A DNA stretch of 64,000 bases from Candidatus Microgenomates bacterium (GCA_025451885.1 JANWJL010000034.1:13149-77148); one strand, 5' to 3'; shown: positions 22,622-25,673, numbered from the stretch's first letter. The notes: generated from the sequence alone by a model not told the origin. Numbers and translations: made by a program.

Positions 22622-23656
22622 ATGAAAAAGCAACCGTTCGTCTCAGTTGTAATACCGGTGAAAGAACTTTCATACCTTTTATTACACGAGTGTCTTCCGG
22701 GACTTCAGAATCAGACCTATAAAAAATTTGAGATTATTGTTCTGCCAAACGAATCCACTCAATACGATCTTACCCTTCTTAGAAAATATAAGAACCTGCG
22801 AATAGTTCCGACAGGCTCGATTACCAGACCTGCTCAAAAAAGAGATCTTGGAGCGAAAGAAGCCAAAGGAGAGATACTGGCTTTTTTGGATGATGATGCA
22901 TATCCTGACGATGACTGGCTAAAAAATGCGACATCCCTTTTTTCAAAACAAAAGATTGAGGCAGTCTGCGGACCGGGAACTCTACCAAAAGTGACAAACC
23001 GCTGGGAAAAGATTTTTGACGAAGTTCTCAAGACATGGGTCGGAGCAGGAGGCCTTAACTACAGATTTACTCCCAAGAAAAAAAGATTTGTTACAGATTA
23101 TCCTTCTATGAATTTCATGATAAAAAAGACGGTCTTTCAAAAGCTGGGAGGATTTGATAATGATTACTGGCCGGGAGAAGATAGCAAGCTTTGCAATGAT
23201 CTTATCGAAAAAGAGAAAGGCAAAATTTTATACAGTCCTCATGTGCTTGTCTTTCATCATAGACGAGGTGATCTTAAGGGATATCTTCGACAACATGGAA
23301 GCTATGGTTTTCACCGGGGAGCATTTTTTGCGCATGGTGATGAAAATTCCAAAAATCCGGCTTATGTGGTTCCTGCCTTATTTATGAGTTATCTGCTCAG
23401 CCTTCCTGTAATCTTAACAGCGGGCTATTTTTCCGGATTCCTAAATCAATACATGATAATCATCCTGCTTTTTCCGCTGGCGCTTTACGGTATTTTCTTA
23501 CTCCTCCTTTTGGTAAAATCATTTATAAATACACTGAGTCTGCCTGTAAGCATAGGCTCGGTCATGACATTATTTCTGACCCATATGATCTACGGATTTC
23601 GTTTTGTAGAGGGTTTTAGAAAAGGATTGGATAAGAACGCAAGTATCTATGATTAA
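22622..23656 (+). CDS. family 2 glycosyltransferase with C-terminal membrane domain
   Basis: 'VSVVIPVKE', 'AFLDDDAYPDDDW', 'GEDSKLC', then about 3-4 hydrophobic helices (residues ~255-330). Confidence 0.7.
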   Translation: MKKQPFVSVVIPVKELSYLLLHECLPGLQNQTYKKFEIIVLPNESTQYDLTLLRKYKNLRIVPTGSITRPAQKRDLGAKEAKGEILAFLDDDAYPDDDWLKNATSLFSKQKIEAVCGPGTLPKVTNRWEKIFDEVLKTWVGAGGLNYRFTPKKKRFVTDYPSMNFMIKKTVFQKLGGFDNDYWPGEDSKLCNDLIEKEKGKILYSPHVLVFHHRRGDLKGYLRQHGSYGFHRGAFFAHGDENSKNPAYVVPALFMSYLLSLPVILTAGYFSGFLNQYMIIILLFPLALYGIFLLLLLVKSFINTLSLPVSIGSVMTLFLTHMIYGFRFVEGFRKGLDKNASIYD

Positions 23657-23897
23657 AGACAACGTCGAGATTGTAAAAAAAGGGGATATTGAGATCAGAA
23701 TCATACGGGAGAAATGTATTGGTGCCGCAACCTGTATCGTATATGCTCCGAGCACCTTTGATCTTGATCCTACCAACATCGCAATTGTGAAAACCGGAGA
23801 ATGGGACCGCTTGGAAAAGGTTATCGCAGCAGCCCAATCCTGCCCGACAGTGGCAATCGAGGTCTTCCAAAAAGGTAAAAAAATCTATCCCAAATAA
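23649..23897 (+). CDS. small ferredoxin (single Fe-S cluster type)
   Basis: 82 aa. 'CIGAATCIVYAPSTF' plus distal 'SCP' is the Cys pattern of single-cluster ferredoxins. The start overlaps the GT2 stop by 8 nt. Confidence 0.7.
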   Translation: MIKDNVEIVKKGDIEIRIIREKCIGAATCIVYAPSTFDLDPTNIAIVKTGEWDRLEKVIAAAQSCPTVAIEVFQKGKKIYPK

Positions 23898-23915
23898 CTC
23901 ACCTAGCTTGACTTT

Positions 23916-25673
23916 GTGATCCAAAGTTGCCATACTTATATTGTGGTAGCGACTAAAAAGAAAACCACGAGTGGTTTGATCAAAACAGTAAACACCCGAG
24001 GGGAAAAGATTAAGAGGCTAAAGGATATAGTCGTAGTAGTAGGATATGCTCCAATCAAATCAAGTAAGGGAGTACCGCTTCTTTCGCAAAACAGACAGTT
24101 TCAATACTTCAACGCACCTACCTATATTTACCCTATGGTGCCTGCATACGCAGCTTCAAATTTACAGGATAAAGGCTACAAGGTTCACTGGATGGACGGT
24201 ATATCCGAAAGAAAGGAATATGATCAGTGGGAAAAAGAACTTGCCGCAAAAAAACCCGATTACCTTTTGGTCGAGACAAAATCTCCGATAGTCAAGACCC
24301 ACTGGAAACAGATTAACCACCTAAAAGAGGTCTTTCCTAAGTTGAAATTGATATGGGTTGGGGATCATGTGACATATCTTCCATTGGAACTTTTTGAAAA
24401 CAGTGCCGTGGATTATGCGATAACCGGCGGAGACTATGATTTTGTCGTAGTAAATCTGCTCAATCATATATATAAAGGAGAGCCGTTGGAAGGCGGAGTC
24501 TACTGGCGGACAAATAATAAAGATATAAAGGCCAAACCTGCCGGCACAGATGTATTGGCAAACGGTGAAAAGATCAACAATAGCGGACCGACGTCACTAA
24601 GACACAATCTTGATGATCTTCCGTTTGTGGACAGAGATCTGACGAAATGGGAACTTTATGCATATGAAAACGGAAACTATAAATATACCCCAGCGACATA
24701 CATGTACTCGGGACGTGATTGTTGGTGGAACCGCTGTACTTTTTGTGTTTGGGATCATACGATAAACCCTTTAGGATCATACAGAAGCTTTTCTCCGGAG
24801 CGACTTTTTGCAGAGGTAAAACATGTCGTGGATAAATACGGCGTCAAAGAAATATTTGATGACGCAGGAACGCTTTTTATCGGGCCCAAGTTAAAAAGAT
24901 TCTGCGAACTTCTTATCGAGAGTGGATATAACAAAAAAGTACGCTATGGCTGCAATATGAGATTCAATGCTATAAATCAAGAATACTACGACCTTATGGG
25001 AAAAGCCCGCTTTAGATTTATCTTGTACGGTATGGAGTCGGGAAATCAAAAAACCCTGGATAAATTAGACAAAGGAACACTTGAGGCTGATGCAATAAAC
25101 GGTCCGCGGATGGCGCGAAAAGCAGGACTTGATCCTCATATTACCATCATGTTGGGCTACCCCTGGGAGACCTACCGCGAAGCACAAAGAACAATTGCTA
25201 TCGCAAAGTATGCTTTCAAAAAAGGCTACTACGAGACTATGCAGGCAACAATAGTAATACCGTATCCAGGTACGCCTCTGTATCAGGAATGTAAGGAAAA
25301 GGGCTGGCTTTTGACCGATGACTATGACAAGTTTGATATGCGGCAGTCTGTTATGAAGACTCCGTTTCCGGTAAAAAAGATCTACGAACTTGAGCAGGAT
25401 CTTTATTCTGCATTCATGACTCCTCAATACATAATGAGGAAAATCCTAGGAATAAGGAGTCTCCACGACTTTAAATATCTCTTCTATATGGGATGGAAGC
25501 TTATCGGCCACCTTCTGGATTTCGATCCCAATCAAACGAAGGTCACCTGGACTTCGCCTAAATTTTGGAAAAACGCTTTTGCCAAACTGGGTAAACATTT
25601 TGTTTCTCCAAGAACTTCGGTTGACGCTGAAAAATCAGCTATTCGCCTCGTAGACAGCGCTGTGAATCTTTAA
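23916..25673 (+). CDS. B12-binding-domain radical SAM enzyme (class B-like)
   Basis: N-terminal Rossmann-like domain with the B12-domain pattern ('VVVVGYAP...KPDYLLVETKSP...IWVGDHVT...DYAITGGDYD'). Then the cluster motif 'GRDCWWNRCTFCVW' and 'IFDDAGTLF', 'ILYGMESGNQ'. The ORF start is GTG at 23916; the true start is uncertain. Confidence 0.7.
   Translation: MIQSCHTYIVVATKKKTTSGLIKTVNTRGEKIKRLKDIVVVVGYAPIKSSKGVPLLSQNRQFQYFNAPTYIYPMVPAYAASNLQDKGYKVHWMDGISERKEYDQWEKELAAKKPDYLLVETKSPIVKTHWKQINHLKEVFPKLKLIWVGDHVTYLPLELFENSAVDYAITGGDYDFVVVNLLNHIYKGEPLEGGVYWRTNNKDIKAKPAGTDVLANGEKINNSGPTSLRHNLDDLPFVDRDLTKWELYAYENGNYKYTPATYMYSGRDCWWNRCTFCVWDHTINPLGSYRSFSPERLFAEVKHVVDKYGVKEIFDDAGTLFIGPKLKRFCELLIESGYNKKVRYGCNMRFNAINQEYYDLMGKARFRFILYGMESGNQKTLDKLDKGTLEADAINGPRMARKAGLDPHITIMLGYPWETYREAQRTIAIAKYAFKKGYYETMQATIVIPYPGTPLYQECKEKGWLLTDDYDKFDMRQSVMKTPFPVKKIYELEQDLYSAFMTPQYIMRKILGIRSLHDFKYLFYMGWKLIGHLLDFDPNQTKVTWTSPKFWKNAFAKLGKHFVSPRTSVDAEKSAIRLVDSAVNL

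What the first reader, a model, noticed from the sequence alone, without database searches (positions are those of the whole stretch)
23649..25673. Ferredoxin plus B12-type radical SAM enzyme embedded in a flippase-GT2-GT2 operon; cluster motif reads C-x4-C-x2-C
An 82-aa single-cluster ferredoxin is translationally coupled to a membrane-anchored GT2 by an 8-nt overlap. A 585-aa protein follows 18 nt later, with a B12-binding-type N-terminal domain and a radical SAM core.

The only Cys triad in the expected place is 'DCWWNRCTFCVW'. That gives four residues between the first two cysteines instead of the canonical three.

Class B radical SAM enzymes act on sugars in known systems: C-methylation in aminoglycoside pathways, and the HpnJ-type enzyme linked to sugar ring contraction downstream of the GT2 HpnI in hopanoid tailoring. 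A dedicated ferredoxin next door suggests a self-contained reductive activation module for a radical modification of a glycan or lipid-linked sugar.

An organism of this type is not expected to make cobalamin, so cofactor supply is also an open question.
Basis: partly seen in the sequence, partly recalled or inferred. Interest (0 to 1): 0.65.

Follow-up and report, generated by a model that had tools for sequence, protein, structure and literature searches.

The report
Sugar-pathway radical SAM enzyme with ferredoxin
A tiny-genome (CPR) bacterium carries a conserved five-gene operon in which an uncharacterised radical SAM enzyme, with an unusual but already documented iron-sulfur motif, sits beside membrane glycosyltransferases and a small ferredoxin, most likely to remodel a membrane-bound sugar for the cell surface.

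Summary
All ORFs, the 8-nt GT2/ferredoxin overlap and the single Cys triad CWWNRCTFC (C-x4-C-x2-C; no canonical triad anywhere) are in the sequence.

The spacing is typical of the clade. All 83 orthologous loci and 118 of the 120 closest homologues carry it. More distant members have x7 to x17 loops, and sister groups at about 30% identity are canonical. It is not unprecedented: the solved cobalamin radical SAM enzyme OxsB has the same loop (CDYSRCTFC).

The enzyme reaches no curated family cut-off (HpnJ 140 of 578 bits, BchE 97 of 481). Its AlphaFold model (pLDDT 93) is closest to AprD4, MgmA, TsrM and OxsB.

Synteny is strong. The membrane GT2 lies directly upstream in 71 of 83 loci, from Patescibacteria to Chloroflexi, usually with a second GT2, a Wzx-like flippase and PMT_2 GT-C transferases. 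The ferredoxin is optional (46 of 83 loci) and always reads CxxAxxC…CP, a [3Fe-4S]-type signature, so a role as low-potential activator is doubtful.

Cobalamin use is unresolved. The most likely function is radical tailoring of a membrane-anchored sugar before export. This is an uncharacterised family, moderately interesting.

The parts
20558..21853 (+). Wzx-like flippase (Polysacc_synt), first gene of the operon; overlaps GT2a by 31 nt
   Evidence: Pfam Polysacc_synt scores 27.2 bits, just under the 28.2 cut-off. The WWE3 (L047) and Chloroflexi (L083) genes in the same position, taken as orthologues by position only, score 73 and 51 bits. tblastn finds it upstream of the radical SAM gene in 46 of 83 loci.
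21823..22617 (+). GT2a: soluble GT2 resembling polyprenyl-phosphate sugar synthases
   Evidence: Pfam Glycos_transf_2 82.8 bits. Nearest solved sequences over residues 9-176 are the dolichol-P-mannose synthase 5mlz, GtrB 5ekp and ArnC 9hwj/9bhc. NCBIfam hits to PgfS, ArnC and PpgS are all far below cut-off. No hydrophobic segment. Present in 53 of 83 loci.
22622..23656 (+). GT2b: membrane-integrated GT2 with three C-terminal transmembrane helices; the tightest partner of the radical SAM gene
   Evidence: Pfam Glycos_transf_2 and Glyco_trans_2_3. Hydrophobic segments at residues 246-319. AlphaFold model pLDDT 92.3. Foldseek best matches are Chlorella virus hyaluronan synthase (TMq 0.59-0.61), TarP and the Pyrobaculum membrane mannosyltransferase 6yv7. 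Directly upstream of the radical SAM gene in 71 of 83 loci.
23649..23897 (+). 82-aa single-cluster ferredoxin with three Cys only (C23, C29, C65): CIGAATC … CP
   Evidence: Fer4_13 36.4 bits and Fer4_15 30.2 bits, both above cut-off. Motifs confirmed by translation. All 44 cleanly read orthologues have CxxAxxC…CP. Nearest solved relative is 4id8, which PMC6237146 identifies as the R. palustris HaA2 ferredoxin of the histidine-containing type isolated as [3Fe-4S]; it aligns as CqGhArC. CXXA/GXXC(X)nCP is the [3Fe-4S] motif (PMC6237146).
23916..25673 (+). Radical SAM enzyme with an N-terminal Rossmann (B12-binding-like) domain; probable true start GTG 23943 (576 aa)
   Evidence: Pfam Radical_SAM 51.6 bits; B12-binding 19.4 bits, sub-threshold. 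HpnJ 139.8 of 577.6 bits, BchE 97 of 481. AlphaFold model pLDDT 93.4, pTM 0.92. Foldseek: AprD4, MgmA, TsrM, OxsB, CysS, TokK. More than 5,500 homologue clusters. At least 598 GTDB species-genome stretches.
24720..24746 (+). Cluster-binding loop CWWNRCTFC (C269-x4-C274-x2-C277 in 585-aa numbering)
   Evidence: Translation. It is the only triad in the protein. It is conserved in all 83 loci as CWW[NG][RK]CTFC. OxsB has the equivalent CDYSRCTFC (PMC9204698).
25684..27339 (-). PMT_2 + TPR GT-C-type glycosyltransferase, convergent; its stop lies 10 nt from the radical SAM stop
   Evidence: PMT_2 29.3 bits (cut-off 26.1) plus several TPR families. tblastn finds this pair near the radical SAM gene in 26 of 83 loci. 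WWE3 locus L047 has three PMT_2 genes upstream of the same cassette.
27383..29029 (-). Second PMT_2 + TPR paralogue (55% identical to the first)
   Evidence: Pfam TPR families above cut-off and PMT_2 at 20.4 bits, below the 26.1 cut-off. 55% identity to the first PMT_2/TPR gene over 551 aa by blastp.

Best explanation
What is shown: this is a functional member of a large, uncharacterised clade of class-B-fold radical SAM enzymes. The clade occurs mainly in Patescibacteria/CPR, with some members in Chloroflexi. The protein has an N-terminal Rossmann domain homologous to cobalamin-binding domains, followed by a radical SAM barrel. Its single [4Fe-4S] site uses a C-x4-C-x2-C loop of the kind seen in OxsB. 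The gene is the last one of a tight operon: flippase, GT2a, GT2b, ferredoxin, radical SAM.

What is inferred about the pathway: GT2a (DPMS/GtrB/ArnC-like) and the membrane-embedded GT2b build a membrane-anchored sugar at the cytoplasmic face. The anchor would be a polyprenyl phosphate or another lipid. The radical SAM enzyme then abstracts a hydrogen atom from that sugar with a 5'-deoxyadenosyl radical and remodels it. The Wzx-like flippase exports the product, and the PMT_2/TPR GT-C enzymes transfer it to an envelope target.

What is inferred about the chemistry: I judge a non-methylating rearrangement, deoxygenation or oxidation (HpnJ/OxsB/AprD4-like) somewhat more likely than C-methylation.

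What is inferred about the ferredoxin: this [3Fe-4S]-type protein is a lineage-specific, dispensable electron partner. It could donate electrons at a modest potential or accept them during an oxidative turnover. Whether cobalamin is used is open.
For: Enzyme identity:
- Radical_SAM above cut-off.
- The three Cys are conserved in 87-88 of 93 relatives, and family invariants match SAM-binding motifs (FDDxG, GxES, GYPWE).
- Confident model, pLDDT 93.4, matching AprD4, MgmA, TsrM, OxsB, CysS and TokK.
- The family profile aligns through the Rossmann domains of OxsB (profile positions 41-357), TsrM (35-395) and CysS (35-450).
- Intein-bearing family members pass the Pfam B12-binding cut-off at 34-40 bits.

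Motif:
- Clade-wide, with structural precedent in OxsB.

Pathway:
- GT2b is directly upstream in 71 of 83 species-level loci, including Chloroflexi. GT2a is present in 53, the flippase in 46 and the ferredoxin in 46.
- Three PMT_2 genes lie upstream of the cassette in the complete WWE3 genome.
- Gene overlaps and short spacers, and no plus-strand terminator inside the operon.
- GT2a resembles DPMS/GtrB/ArnC. GT2b has a hyaluronan-synthase-like membrane GT2 fold.

Chemistry leaning:
- The nearest curated models (HpnJ, BchE), the nearest structure (AprD4) and the enzyme sharing the loop (OxsB) are all non-methylases.
- Conventional sugar C-methyltransferases are already encoded next door, at 19215-20480 and 38168-39418.

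Ferredoxin type.
Against: - No member of the clade has been studied experimentally, and nothing on it turned up in the literature library. Substrate and reaction are inferred from gene context only.
- Eight orthologous loci at 58-60% identity have no GT2 within 10 kb. There the gene sits in an AsnRS/AspRS, HEAT-repeat, beta-CASP, radical SAM, CotH context.
- Most characterised class B enzymes are methylases, and MgmA, the second-closest structure, is one.
- The Pfam B12-binding hit is sub-threshold for this protein, and the AprD4 precedent shows such a domain need not bind cobalamin.
- A [3Fe-4S] ferredoxin at -203 to -85 mV is thermodynamically a poor reductant for a radical SAM cluster.
Confidence: 0.55

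Rival explanations
1. It is a cobalamin-dependent radical SAM C-methyltransferase (GenK/GenD1/Fom3-like). It would add a methyl group to an unactivated carbon of the sugar via methylcobalamin, using scavenged cobalamin.
For: Most characterised class B enzymes are methylases (PMC12931638; PMC9204698). MgmA, TsrM, CysS and TokK are among the top structural matches. The N-terminal domain aligns with true cobalamin-binding domains, and relatives pass the Pfam B12-binding cut-off.
Against: The nearest curated models (HpnJ, BchE), the nearest structure (AprD4) and the loop-sharing enzyme (OxsB) are not methylases. No cobalamin uptake or salvage gene is present in the 64-kb window. Class I sugar C-methyltransferases are already present in the locus. 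The clade is concentrated in reduced-genome CPR bacteria.
Confidence: 0.25
2. The enzyme does not act on a sugar. It would modify the lipid carrier, a protein or an RNA, and its place in the glycan operon reflects co-regulation or inherited gene order.
For: Eight loci with 58-60% identical orthologues lack any GT2 within 10 kb. They place the gene after an AsnRS/AspRS, a HEAT-repeat protein and a beta-CASP nuclease, and before a CotH protein. Class B enzymes do act on lipids (HpnP/HpnR, GrsA/B; PMC13459092) and on proteins (MgmA).
Against: Adjacency to GT2b survives from Roizmanbacteria (86% identity) to Chloroflexi (53-55%) across 71 of 83 loci, while the surrounding genes change. Overlapping or tightly spaced genes argue for a single operon.
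Confidence: 0.15
3. The odd spacing marks a degenerate or inactive enzyme, or a sequencing or annotation artefact.
For: Some distant relatives (P0143, P0144, P0146, P0150, P0152) have lost all three Cys, so inactive paralogues do exist in the wider family.
Against: The exact loop is conserved in all 83 loci from independent assemblies and in 118 of 120 close homologues. The same loop binds the cluster in the OxsB crystal structure. The SAM-binding invariants are intact.
Confidence: 0.02

Closest known systems
HpnJ (hopanoid-associated radical SAM, TIGR03471), acting after the GT2 HpnI
   Same: It is the best-scoring curated model and has the same two-domain architecture. The logic is the same: a membrane GT2 attaches a sugar to a lipid and a class B radical SAM then remodels that sugar. 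For HpnJ the proposed reaction is ring contraction of bacteriohopanetetrol glucosamine to the cyclitol ether (PMC9204698 and PMC13459092).
   Different: The score is 139.8 bits against a cut-off of 577.6. GT2b gives no HpnI hit. No hopanoid genes occur in the window or in related loci. The relative most like HpnJ (P0175, 303 bits) has a canonical CPNKCTFC triad. HpnJ itself has not been characterised biochemically.
OxsB (oxetanocin A biosynthesis; PDB 5UL2-5UL4)
   Same: It is a class B radical SAM acting on a sugar ring (deoxyribose ring contraction) and is not a methylase. It has the same C-x4-C-x2-C cluster loop with Arg before the second Cys: CDYSRCTFC against CWWNRCTFC. Foldseek TMq is 0.60.
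   Different: OxsB is 744 aa, with an extra N-terminal domain. Sequence identity is about 15%. It acts on a soluble nucleotide in an antibiotic pathway, not in a membrane glycoconjugate operon.
AprD4 (radical SAM 1,2-diol dehydratase of apramycin biosynthesis; PDB 6FD2)
   Same: It is the closest solved structure (E 6e-20, TMt 0.74) and the best sequence and profile hit in the PDB. It acts on a sugar (paromamine). It has a Rossmann-like N-terminal domain.
   Different: The NCBIfam AprD4 model scores 52 bits against a cut-off of 500. The profile aligns only over the radical SAM barrel, not over the AprD4 N-terminal domain. AprD4 does not bind cobalamin (PMC12931638), and its triad is canonical (CPYPCRFYC).
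Three-component polyprenyl-phosphate glycosylation systems (GtrB/CsbB/ArnC-type GT2, a flippase and a GT-C transferase such as ArnT/PMT/YfhO). The system outline is my own knowledge.
   Same: GT2a resembles DPMS/GtrB/ArnC. A Wzx-like flippase and PMT_2 GT-C genes are in the cassette. The window holds two further flippase + GT2 + PMT_2 sets without a radical SAM gene.
   Different: This set adds a second, membrane-embedded GT2, a [3Fe-4S]-type ferredoxin and a radical SAM enzyme. I know of no described three-component system with a radical SAM tailoring step.
[3Fe-4S] single-cluster ferredoxins that partner with bacterial P450s (for example PDB 4ID8, the R. palustris HaA2 ferredoxin, and the Mycobacterium Fdx proteins)
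   Same: The same CxxXxxC…CP scaffold with a non-Cys second position, here Ala, the classic [3Fe-4S] residue.
   Different: No P450 is nearby. The partner here is a radical SAM enzyme, for which a [3Fe-4S] ferredoxin is an unusual and thermodynamically awkward reductant.

Membership tests
Radical SAM superfamily (PF04055) | Pfam model above the gathering score | tested here: met
   51.6 bits against 29.5.
Radical SAM superfamily (PF04055) | Three-Cys site for the SAM-binding [4Fe-4S] cluster, normally C-x3-C-x2-C | tested here: met
   Met in the variant form C-x4-C-x2-C. The three Cys are conserved in 87-88 of 93 relatives. The same variant binds the cluster in OxsB.
Radical SAM superfamily (PF04055) | SAM-binding motifs (GGE-like, ribose motif, GxIxGxxE-like) | tested here: met
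   Family invariants E303/F305/D306/D307/G309, G363/E365/S366 and G405/Y406/W408/E409, in 576-aa numbering. I assigned these to the motifs by position. This was not verified in a co-structure.
Class B (cobalamin-dependent) radical SAM enzymes | N-terminal B12-binding Rossmann domain (PF02310) | tested here: inconclusive
   This protein scores 19.4 bits against a cut-off of 32.1. Family members P0122, P0123 and P0125 score 34-40 bits. The family profile aligns across the cobalamin-binding domains of OxsB, TsrM and CysS.
Class B (cobalamin-dependent) radical SAM enzymes | Overall fold like solved class B enzymes | tested here: met
   Foldseek probability 1.00 to MgmA, TsrM, OxsB, CysS and TokK, with TM-scores 0.5-0.7. 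The top hit, AprD4, is a look-alike that does not bind cobalamin.
Class B (cobalamin-dependent) radical SAM enzymes | Actual binding and use of cobalamin | not testable with these tools
   This needs purified protein or a cofactor-aware structure model. No cobalamin genes are in the window, and the rest of the genome was not available.
HpnJ (TIGR03471, equivalog) | Score at or above the curated cut-off of 577.6 bits | tested here: not met
   139.8 bits. None of the 10 family representatives scanned scores above 304 bits.
HpnJ (TIGR03471, equivalog) | Hopanoid gene context (squalene-hopene cyclase, hpnH, hpnI, hpnK) | tested here: not met
   None among the annotated ORFs of the 64-kb window or among the neighbours examined in L001, L047 and L083. 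GT2b gives no HpnI hit.
BchE (TIGR02026) | Score at or above 481.35 bits | tested here: not met
   97 bits.
AprD4 family diol dehydratase (NF033070) | Score at or above 500 bits | tested here: not met
   52.3 bits. AprD4 is the closest structure only.
[3Fe-4S] single-cluster ferredoxin | CxxA/GxxC(x)nCP motif with exactly three cluster Cys | tested here: met
   CIGAATC … CP. All 44 cleanly read orthologues have Ala at the second position: 41 have three Cys and 3 carry one extra Cys outside the motif. Motif definition from PMC6237146. The cluster type itself was not measured.
Three-component polyprenyl-phosphate glycosylation system | A GtrB/DPMS/ArnC-like GT2, a flippase and a GT-C transferase in one locus | tested here: met
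   GT2a against 5mlz, 5ekp and 9hwj at E 3e-10 to 2e-7. Polysacc_synt flippase. PMT_2 above cut-off. The lipid carrier and the donor sugar were not determined.

The most novel reading that the evidence does not exclude
The cassette would be a previously undescribed kind of envelope glycosylation pathway, widespread in CPR bacteria. In it a lipid-anchored hexose is converted by an HpnJ/OxsB-like radical SAM enzyme into a carbocyclic, ring-contracted or deoxygenated sugar before it is flipped and transferred. The enzyme would work without cobalamin, or with scavenged cobalamin in a non-methyl role. It would use a dedicated [3Fe-4S] ferredoxin as electron acceptor or donor. That would be a new radical SAM reaction and redox pairing in organisms with minimal metabolism.
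Probability: 0.2. Interest if true: 0.75.

Novelty: new variant of a known kind. Interest (0 to 1): 0.5.

Why it matters
CPR/Patescibacteria make up a large share of bacterial diversity, and very little is known about their cell-envelope chemistry. This cassette is conserved in hundreds of their species genomes despite extreme genome reduction, so its product probably matters for the envelope or for attachment to hosts.

The enzyme belongs to the HpnJ/BchE-proximal part of the class B radical SAM network. HpnJ, its nearest curated model, remains biochemically uncharacterised and BchE was characterised in vitro only recently. A small, well-folding and abundant orthologue with a defined GT2 partner could give access to sugar-remodelling radical chemistry.

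It could also help settle whether B12-type domains in organisms with minimal biosynthetic capacity really use cobalamin.

The C-x4-C-x2-C motif is not a discovery in itself. However, the range of loop lengths in this clade (x4 to x17) is a useful natural experiment on how much variation the cluster loop tolerates.

Tried and rejected
- Canonical triad elsewhere in the protein: none. The protein has 7 Cys and a single triad.
- Membership of HpnJ, BchE, PhpK, the ladderane enzyme, HpnR, AprD4, BzaD, MgmA and other NCBIfam models: all far below cut-off, both for the query and for 10 diverse relatives.
- GT2b as HpnI: no hit. Its fold is a generic membrane GT2, hyaluronan-synthase or PcManGT-like.
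- Deciding cobalamin use from sequence or structure: not possible.
- Literature on CPR and cobalamin: uninformative or ambiguous.
- Literature on this family in CPR: nothing found.
- Promoter and terminator scan of the operon: no signal above shuffled controls.
- Start codon: no clear ribosome-binding site before any of GTG 23916, GTG 23943 or TTG 23976. The start was chosen from homologue N-termini only.
- Artefact or pseudogene reading: rejected on conservation.

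
Full report
**1. The observation**

The ORF list and the raw sequence confirm every structural statement in the finding.
- A Wzx-like gene (20558-21853) overlaps GT2a (21823-22617) by 31 nt.
- GT2b (22622-23656) follows after a 4-nt spacer.
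- The 82-aa ferredoxin gene (23649-23897) starts inside the GT2b stop region (ATGATTAA), giving an 8-nt overlap.
- The longest radical SAM ORF (23916-25673, GTG start, 585 aa) begins 18 nt after the ferredoxin stop.

No plus-strand terminator-like site lies inside this block, and promoter-like sites are no more frequent than in shuffled sequence. This fits a single operon.

The closest homologues are 575-577 aa, and the 88%-identical P0001 begins MMTKSQKRSVNGLLKT. The true start is therefore probably GTG 23943 (576 aa). No convincing ribosome-binding site precedes any candidate start.

GT2b has hydrophobic segments at residues 246-319, and its model shows three long C-terminal helices.

Pfam results:
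- Radical_SAM 51.6 bits, above its cut-off.
- B12-binding only 19.4 bits, below the 32.1 cut-off.
- Fer4_13 and Fer4_15 above cut-off for the ferredoxin.

Nucleotides 24720-24746 translate to CWWNRCTFC. The protein has only seven Cys, no C-x3-C-x2-C anywhere, and this single triad.

**2. Is the spacing typical of the family, and is it new?**

The spacing is typical of the clade.
- Among the 120 closest homologue clusters (77-88% identity, Roizmanbacteria/Microgenomates), 118 read CWWNRCTFC and the other two differ only at the third position.
- All 83 orthologous loci fetched (53-86% identity) read CWW[NG][RK]CTFC.
- In the exhaustive search of 50%-identity representatives, nearer relatives keep x4 (CWWGKCTFC, CWYGKCTFC, CPYGKCTFC).
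- Others have longer loops: x7 (CWYRHEGGC, CWWRKDGGC), x9, x10 and x17.
- Sister groups at about 30% identity are canonical, CP[YF]xCxFC.

The insertion therefore defines the clade and is one point in a range of loop lengths.

It is not unprecedented. The review PMC9204698 states that the OxsB crystal structure has a CX4CX2C motif. In my profile search of PDB sequences, OxsB aligns as sRGCdYsRCTFC against the family GRDCWWNRCTFC.

**3. What the enzyme is**

No NCBIfam model reaches its cut-off. The scores are HpnJ 139.8 of 577.6, BchE 97 of 481, and PhpK, ladderane enzyme, HpnR, AprD4, BzaD and MgmA all lower. The same holds for ten diverse relatives.

The family is large. It has more than 5,500 clusters at E below 1e-5 and 227 50%-identity representatives below 1e-30. 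At least 598 stretches in GTDB species genomes matched a single peptide pattern.

Named hosts are Roizmanbacteria, WWE3, Gottesmanbacteria, Moraniibacteria, "Patescibacteria group", two Chloroflexi, one Miltoncostaeaceae and UBP3. Many TPA records titled "uncultured Gammaproteobacteria" carry the same CPR-type loci.

An AlphaFold2 model built on 93 sequences is confident (pLDDT 93.4, pTM 0.92). Foldseek against the PDB gives, in order:
- AprD4 (E 6e-20, TMt 0.74)
- MgmA (TMt 0.70)
- TsrM
- OxsB (TMq 0.60)
- CysS
- TokK
- MiaB

The family profile aligns across the Rossmann domains of OxsB, TsrM and CysS, but only across the barrel of AprD4. Intein-containing family members pass the Pfam B12-binding cut-off at 34-40 bits.

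The N-terminal domain is therefore homologous to genuine cobalamin-binding domains. Homology does not prove binding, because AprD4 and ArsL-like enzymes sit in the same similarity network and bind no cobalamin (PMC12931638). Cobalamin use stays open. No cobalamin-related gene is present among the annotated ORFs of the window, and the rest of the genome could not be examined.

**4. Gene context**

I ran tblastn with the window's proteins against 83 loci. Counts of loci with each neighbour:

| Neighbour | Loci (of 83) | Position |
|---|---|---|
| GT2b | 71 | immediately upstream of the radical SAM gene |
| GT2a | 53 | upstream |
| Flippase | 46 | upstream |
| Ferredoxin | 46 | always between GT2b and the radical SAM gene |
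| PMT_2/TPR | 26 | nearby |

- In the complete WWE3 genome (L047) the co-directional order is PMT_2 three times, flippase, GT2a, GT2b, ferredoxin, radical SAM.
- In Chloroflexi (L083) the order is flippase, GT2, GT2, class I methyltransferase, radical SAM, GT2, GT1, with no ferredoxin.
- GT2a resembles polyprenyl-phosphate sugar synthases: DPMS 5mlz, GtrB 5ekp and ArnC.
- GT2b (model pLDDT 92.3) best matches the membrane-embedded hyaluronan synthase (TMq about 0.6), TarP and the Pyrobaculum membrane mannosyltransferase.
- The window also holds two more flippase + GT2 + PMT_2 sets, at 45256-50283 and 53281-56730, without a radical SAM gene.

The cassette therefore looks like a three-component lipid-carrier glycosylation system with three additions: GT2b, the ferredoxin and the radical SAM enzyme.

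One caveat applies. Eight loci (L063-L066, L068, L073, L077, L078; 58-60% identity, same x4 loop) have no GT2 within 10 kb. In the three of them whose neighbours I annotated (L064, L068, L073), the gene sits in an AsnRS/AspRS, (APS kinase), HEAT-repeat, (beta-CASP), radical SAM arrangement, followed in L073 by a CotH gene.

**5. The ferredoxin**

It has exactly three Cys: C23-I-G-A-A-T-C29 and C65-P. All 44 cleanly read orthologues have CxxAxxC…CP.

PMC6237146 gives CXXA/GXXC(X)nCP as the [3Fe-4S] motif and quotes potentials of -203 to -85 mV for previously characterised [3Fe-4S] ferredoxins. The nearest solved relative is 4id8, aligned as CqGhArC. PMC6237146 names 4ID8 as the R. palustris HaA2 ferredoxin and reports that the histidine-containing Rhodopseudomonas ferredoxins were isolated as [3Fe-4S] proteins.

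The gene is absent from 37 of the 83 loci. It is therefore an accessory, lineage-specific partner, and probably not a classic low-potential [4Fe-4S] reductant. It may donate electrons inefficiently, or it may accept an electron in an oxidative turnover. Both possibilities are inference.

**6. Most likely mechanism**

Shown: this is an intact radical SAM enzyme of the class B fold, with an OxsB-type cluster loop, encoded in an operon with two GT2 enzymes and a flippase.

Inferred:
- The enzyme acts at the cytoplasmic membrane face on the sugar that GT2b, with GT2a, attaches to a lipid or polyprenyl-phosphate carrier.
- The product is then flipped and transferred by the PMT_2/TPR GT-C enzymes.
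- This parallels the HpnI to HpnJ sequence, and the proposed calditol synthase step on a lipid-linked glucose (PMC13459092).

I lean towards a non-methylating rearrangement, deoxygenation or oxidation, for two reasons.
- HpnJ, BchE, AprD4 and OxsB, the nearest references by model score, by structure and by loop, are all non-methylases.
- Ordinary sugar C-methyltransferases are already encoded at 19215-20480 and 38168-39418.

Cobalamin-dependent C-methylation remains a serious rival.

**7. Comparison and novelty**

The protein is not a member of HpnJ, BchE or AprD4, because the curated cut-offs are not met. It is an unnamed clade of a known kind of enzyme, in a cassette that is a new variant of a known type of glycosylation system. 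The motif that prompted the finding is real but has precedent.

I found no publication on this family in the searchable library.

Interest is moderate. The system is widespread, conserved and uncharacterised in a poorly understood part of the bacterial tree. Its chemistry, however, cannot be read from the sequence.

Noticed in passing
Relatives P0122, P0123, P0125, P0126, P0127 (not in the window): Homologues of 665-972 aa carry inteins inserted exactly at the cluster-binding Cys (for example GRD|CFPAGTLVET… and CTF|CFPPETIITT…). Four of them also have a LAGLIDADG homing endonuclease. Pfam hits to Intein_splicing, LAGLIDADG_3 and Hint support this.
   Followed up: partly
Relatives P0143, P0144, P0146, P0150, P0152 (alignment A1): Full-length relatives at 31-36% identity have lost all three cluster Cys (for example RDSDWGQSSLGS). 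They are probably non-catalytic paralogues. Their gene context was not examined.
   Followed up: no
L001 8597-9961; L007 9218-10039; L067 9209-10030; L040 8951-9919; L048 8963-9922: In related loci an extra gene occupies the slot between the ferredoxin and the radical SAM gene. It is a DIT1_PvcA (isonitrile-synthase-like) protein in L001 and an FTR1 iron permease in L067 and, by sequence similarity, L007. In L040, L043, L048, L049 and L055, with a truncated ORF in L071, it is a protein of about 255-320 aa with a conserved CYCxxC motif and only weak DUF4015/GH42 similarity. The window has no such gene.
   Followed up: partly
L063-L066, L068, L073, L077, L078: Orthologues at 58-60% identity with the same C-x4-C-x2-C loop lie in a different neighbourhood, with no GT2 within 10 kb. 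In the three loci annotated (L064, L068, L073) the order is AsnRS/AspRS, (APS kinase), HEAT-repeat protein, (beta-CASP nuclease), radical SAM, followed in L073 by a large CotH protein.
   Followed up: partly
window 45256-50283 and 53281-56730: Two further sets of a Polysacc_synt flippase, a GT2 and one or two PMT_2 GT-C genes, without a radical SAM gene or ferredoxin. The genome appears to run several parallel lipid-carrier glycosylation modules.
   Followed up: partly
window 29104-40470: A large sugar-nucleotide and glycan cluster. It contains epimerases/dehydratases, three GT2 genes, a class I methyltransferase, a CapD-like dehydratase, a DegT aminotransferase, an N-formyltransferase (Formyl_trans_N + N_formyltrans_C), a GT1 and a sugar C-methyltransferase. 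This points to formylated and C-methylated amino sugars.
   Followed up: no
window 19215-20480 (-): A sugar C-methyltransferase (Methyltransf_13/14, with the zinc-binding N-terminal domain) is transcribed divergently from the operon start. A paralogue lies at 38168-39418.
   Followed up: no
window 40553-42763 and 42753-45215 (+): Two large adjacent ORFs (736 and 820 aa) with no Pfam hit at E 1e-5, lying between the sugar cluster and the next PMT_2 set.
   Followed up: no
window 16742-17425 (-): An NADPH-dependent FMN reductase family flavoprotein lies three genes upstream of the operon. It is a conceivable electron source for the ferredoxin. The five relative loci checked (L001, L002, L047, L083, L073) have no counterpart at the corresponding position.
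   Followed up: no
window 7892-8587 (+): The release-factor ORF is only 231 aa and matches just the C-terminal part of the PCRF domain plus the RF-1 domain. This would fit the usual prfB +1 frameshift, or a truncated gene call.
   Followed up: no
Radical SAM protein residues about 45-60 (585-aa numbering), window about 24050-24095: An invariant Q-N-R-Q motif (LSQNRQFQYF) sits in an expanded loop after the first Rossmann strand. In classical B12 domains this is where the DxHxxG loop lies. It is shared with HpnJ-like relatives (SQNRW in P0175) and absent from canonical class B relatives P0197 and P0214. It could sit under, or replace, a corrin.
   Followed up: no
Record titles of L005-L034 and others: Many TPA metagenome bins titled "uncultured Gammaproteobacteria", "Bdellovibrionales" or "Gemmatimonas" carry radical SAM orthologues 59-85% identical to the window's enzyme, and nearly all with enough flank also carry the GT2b cassette. 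Their taxonomic labels look unreliable.
   Followed up: no
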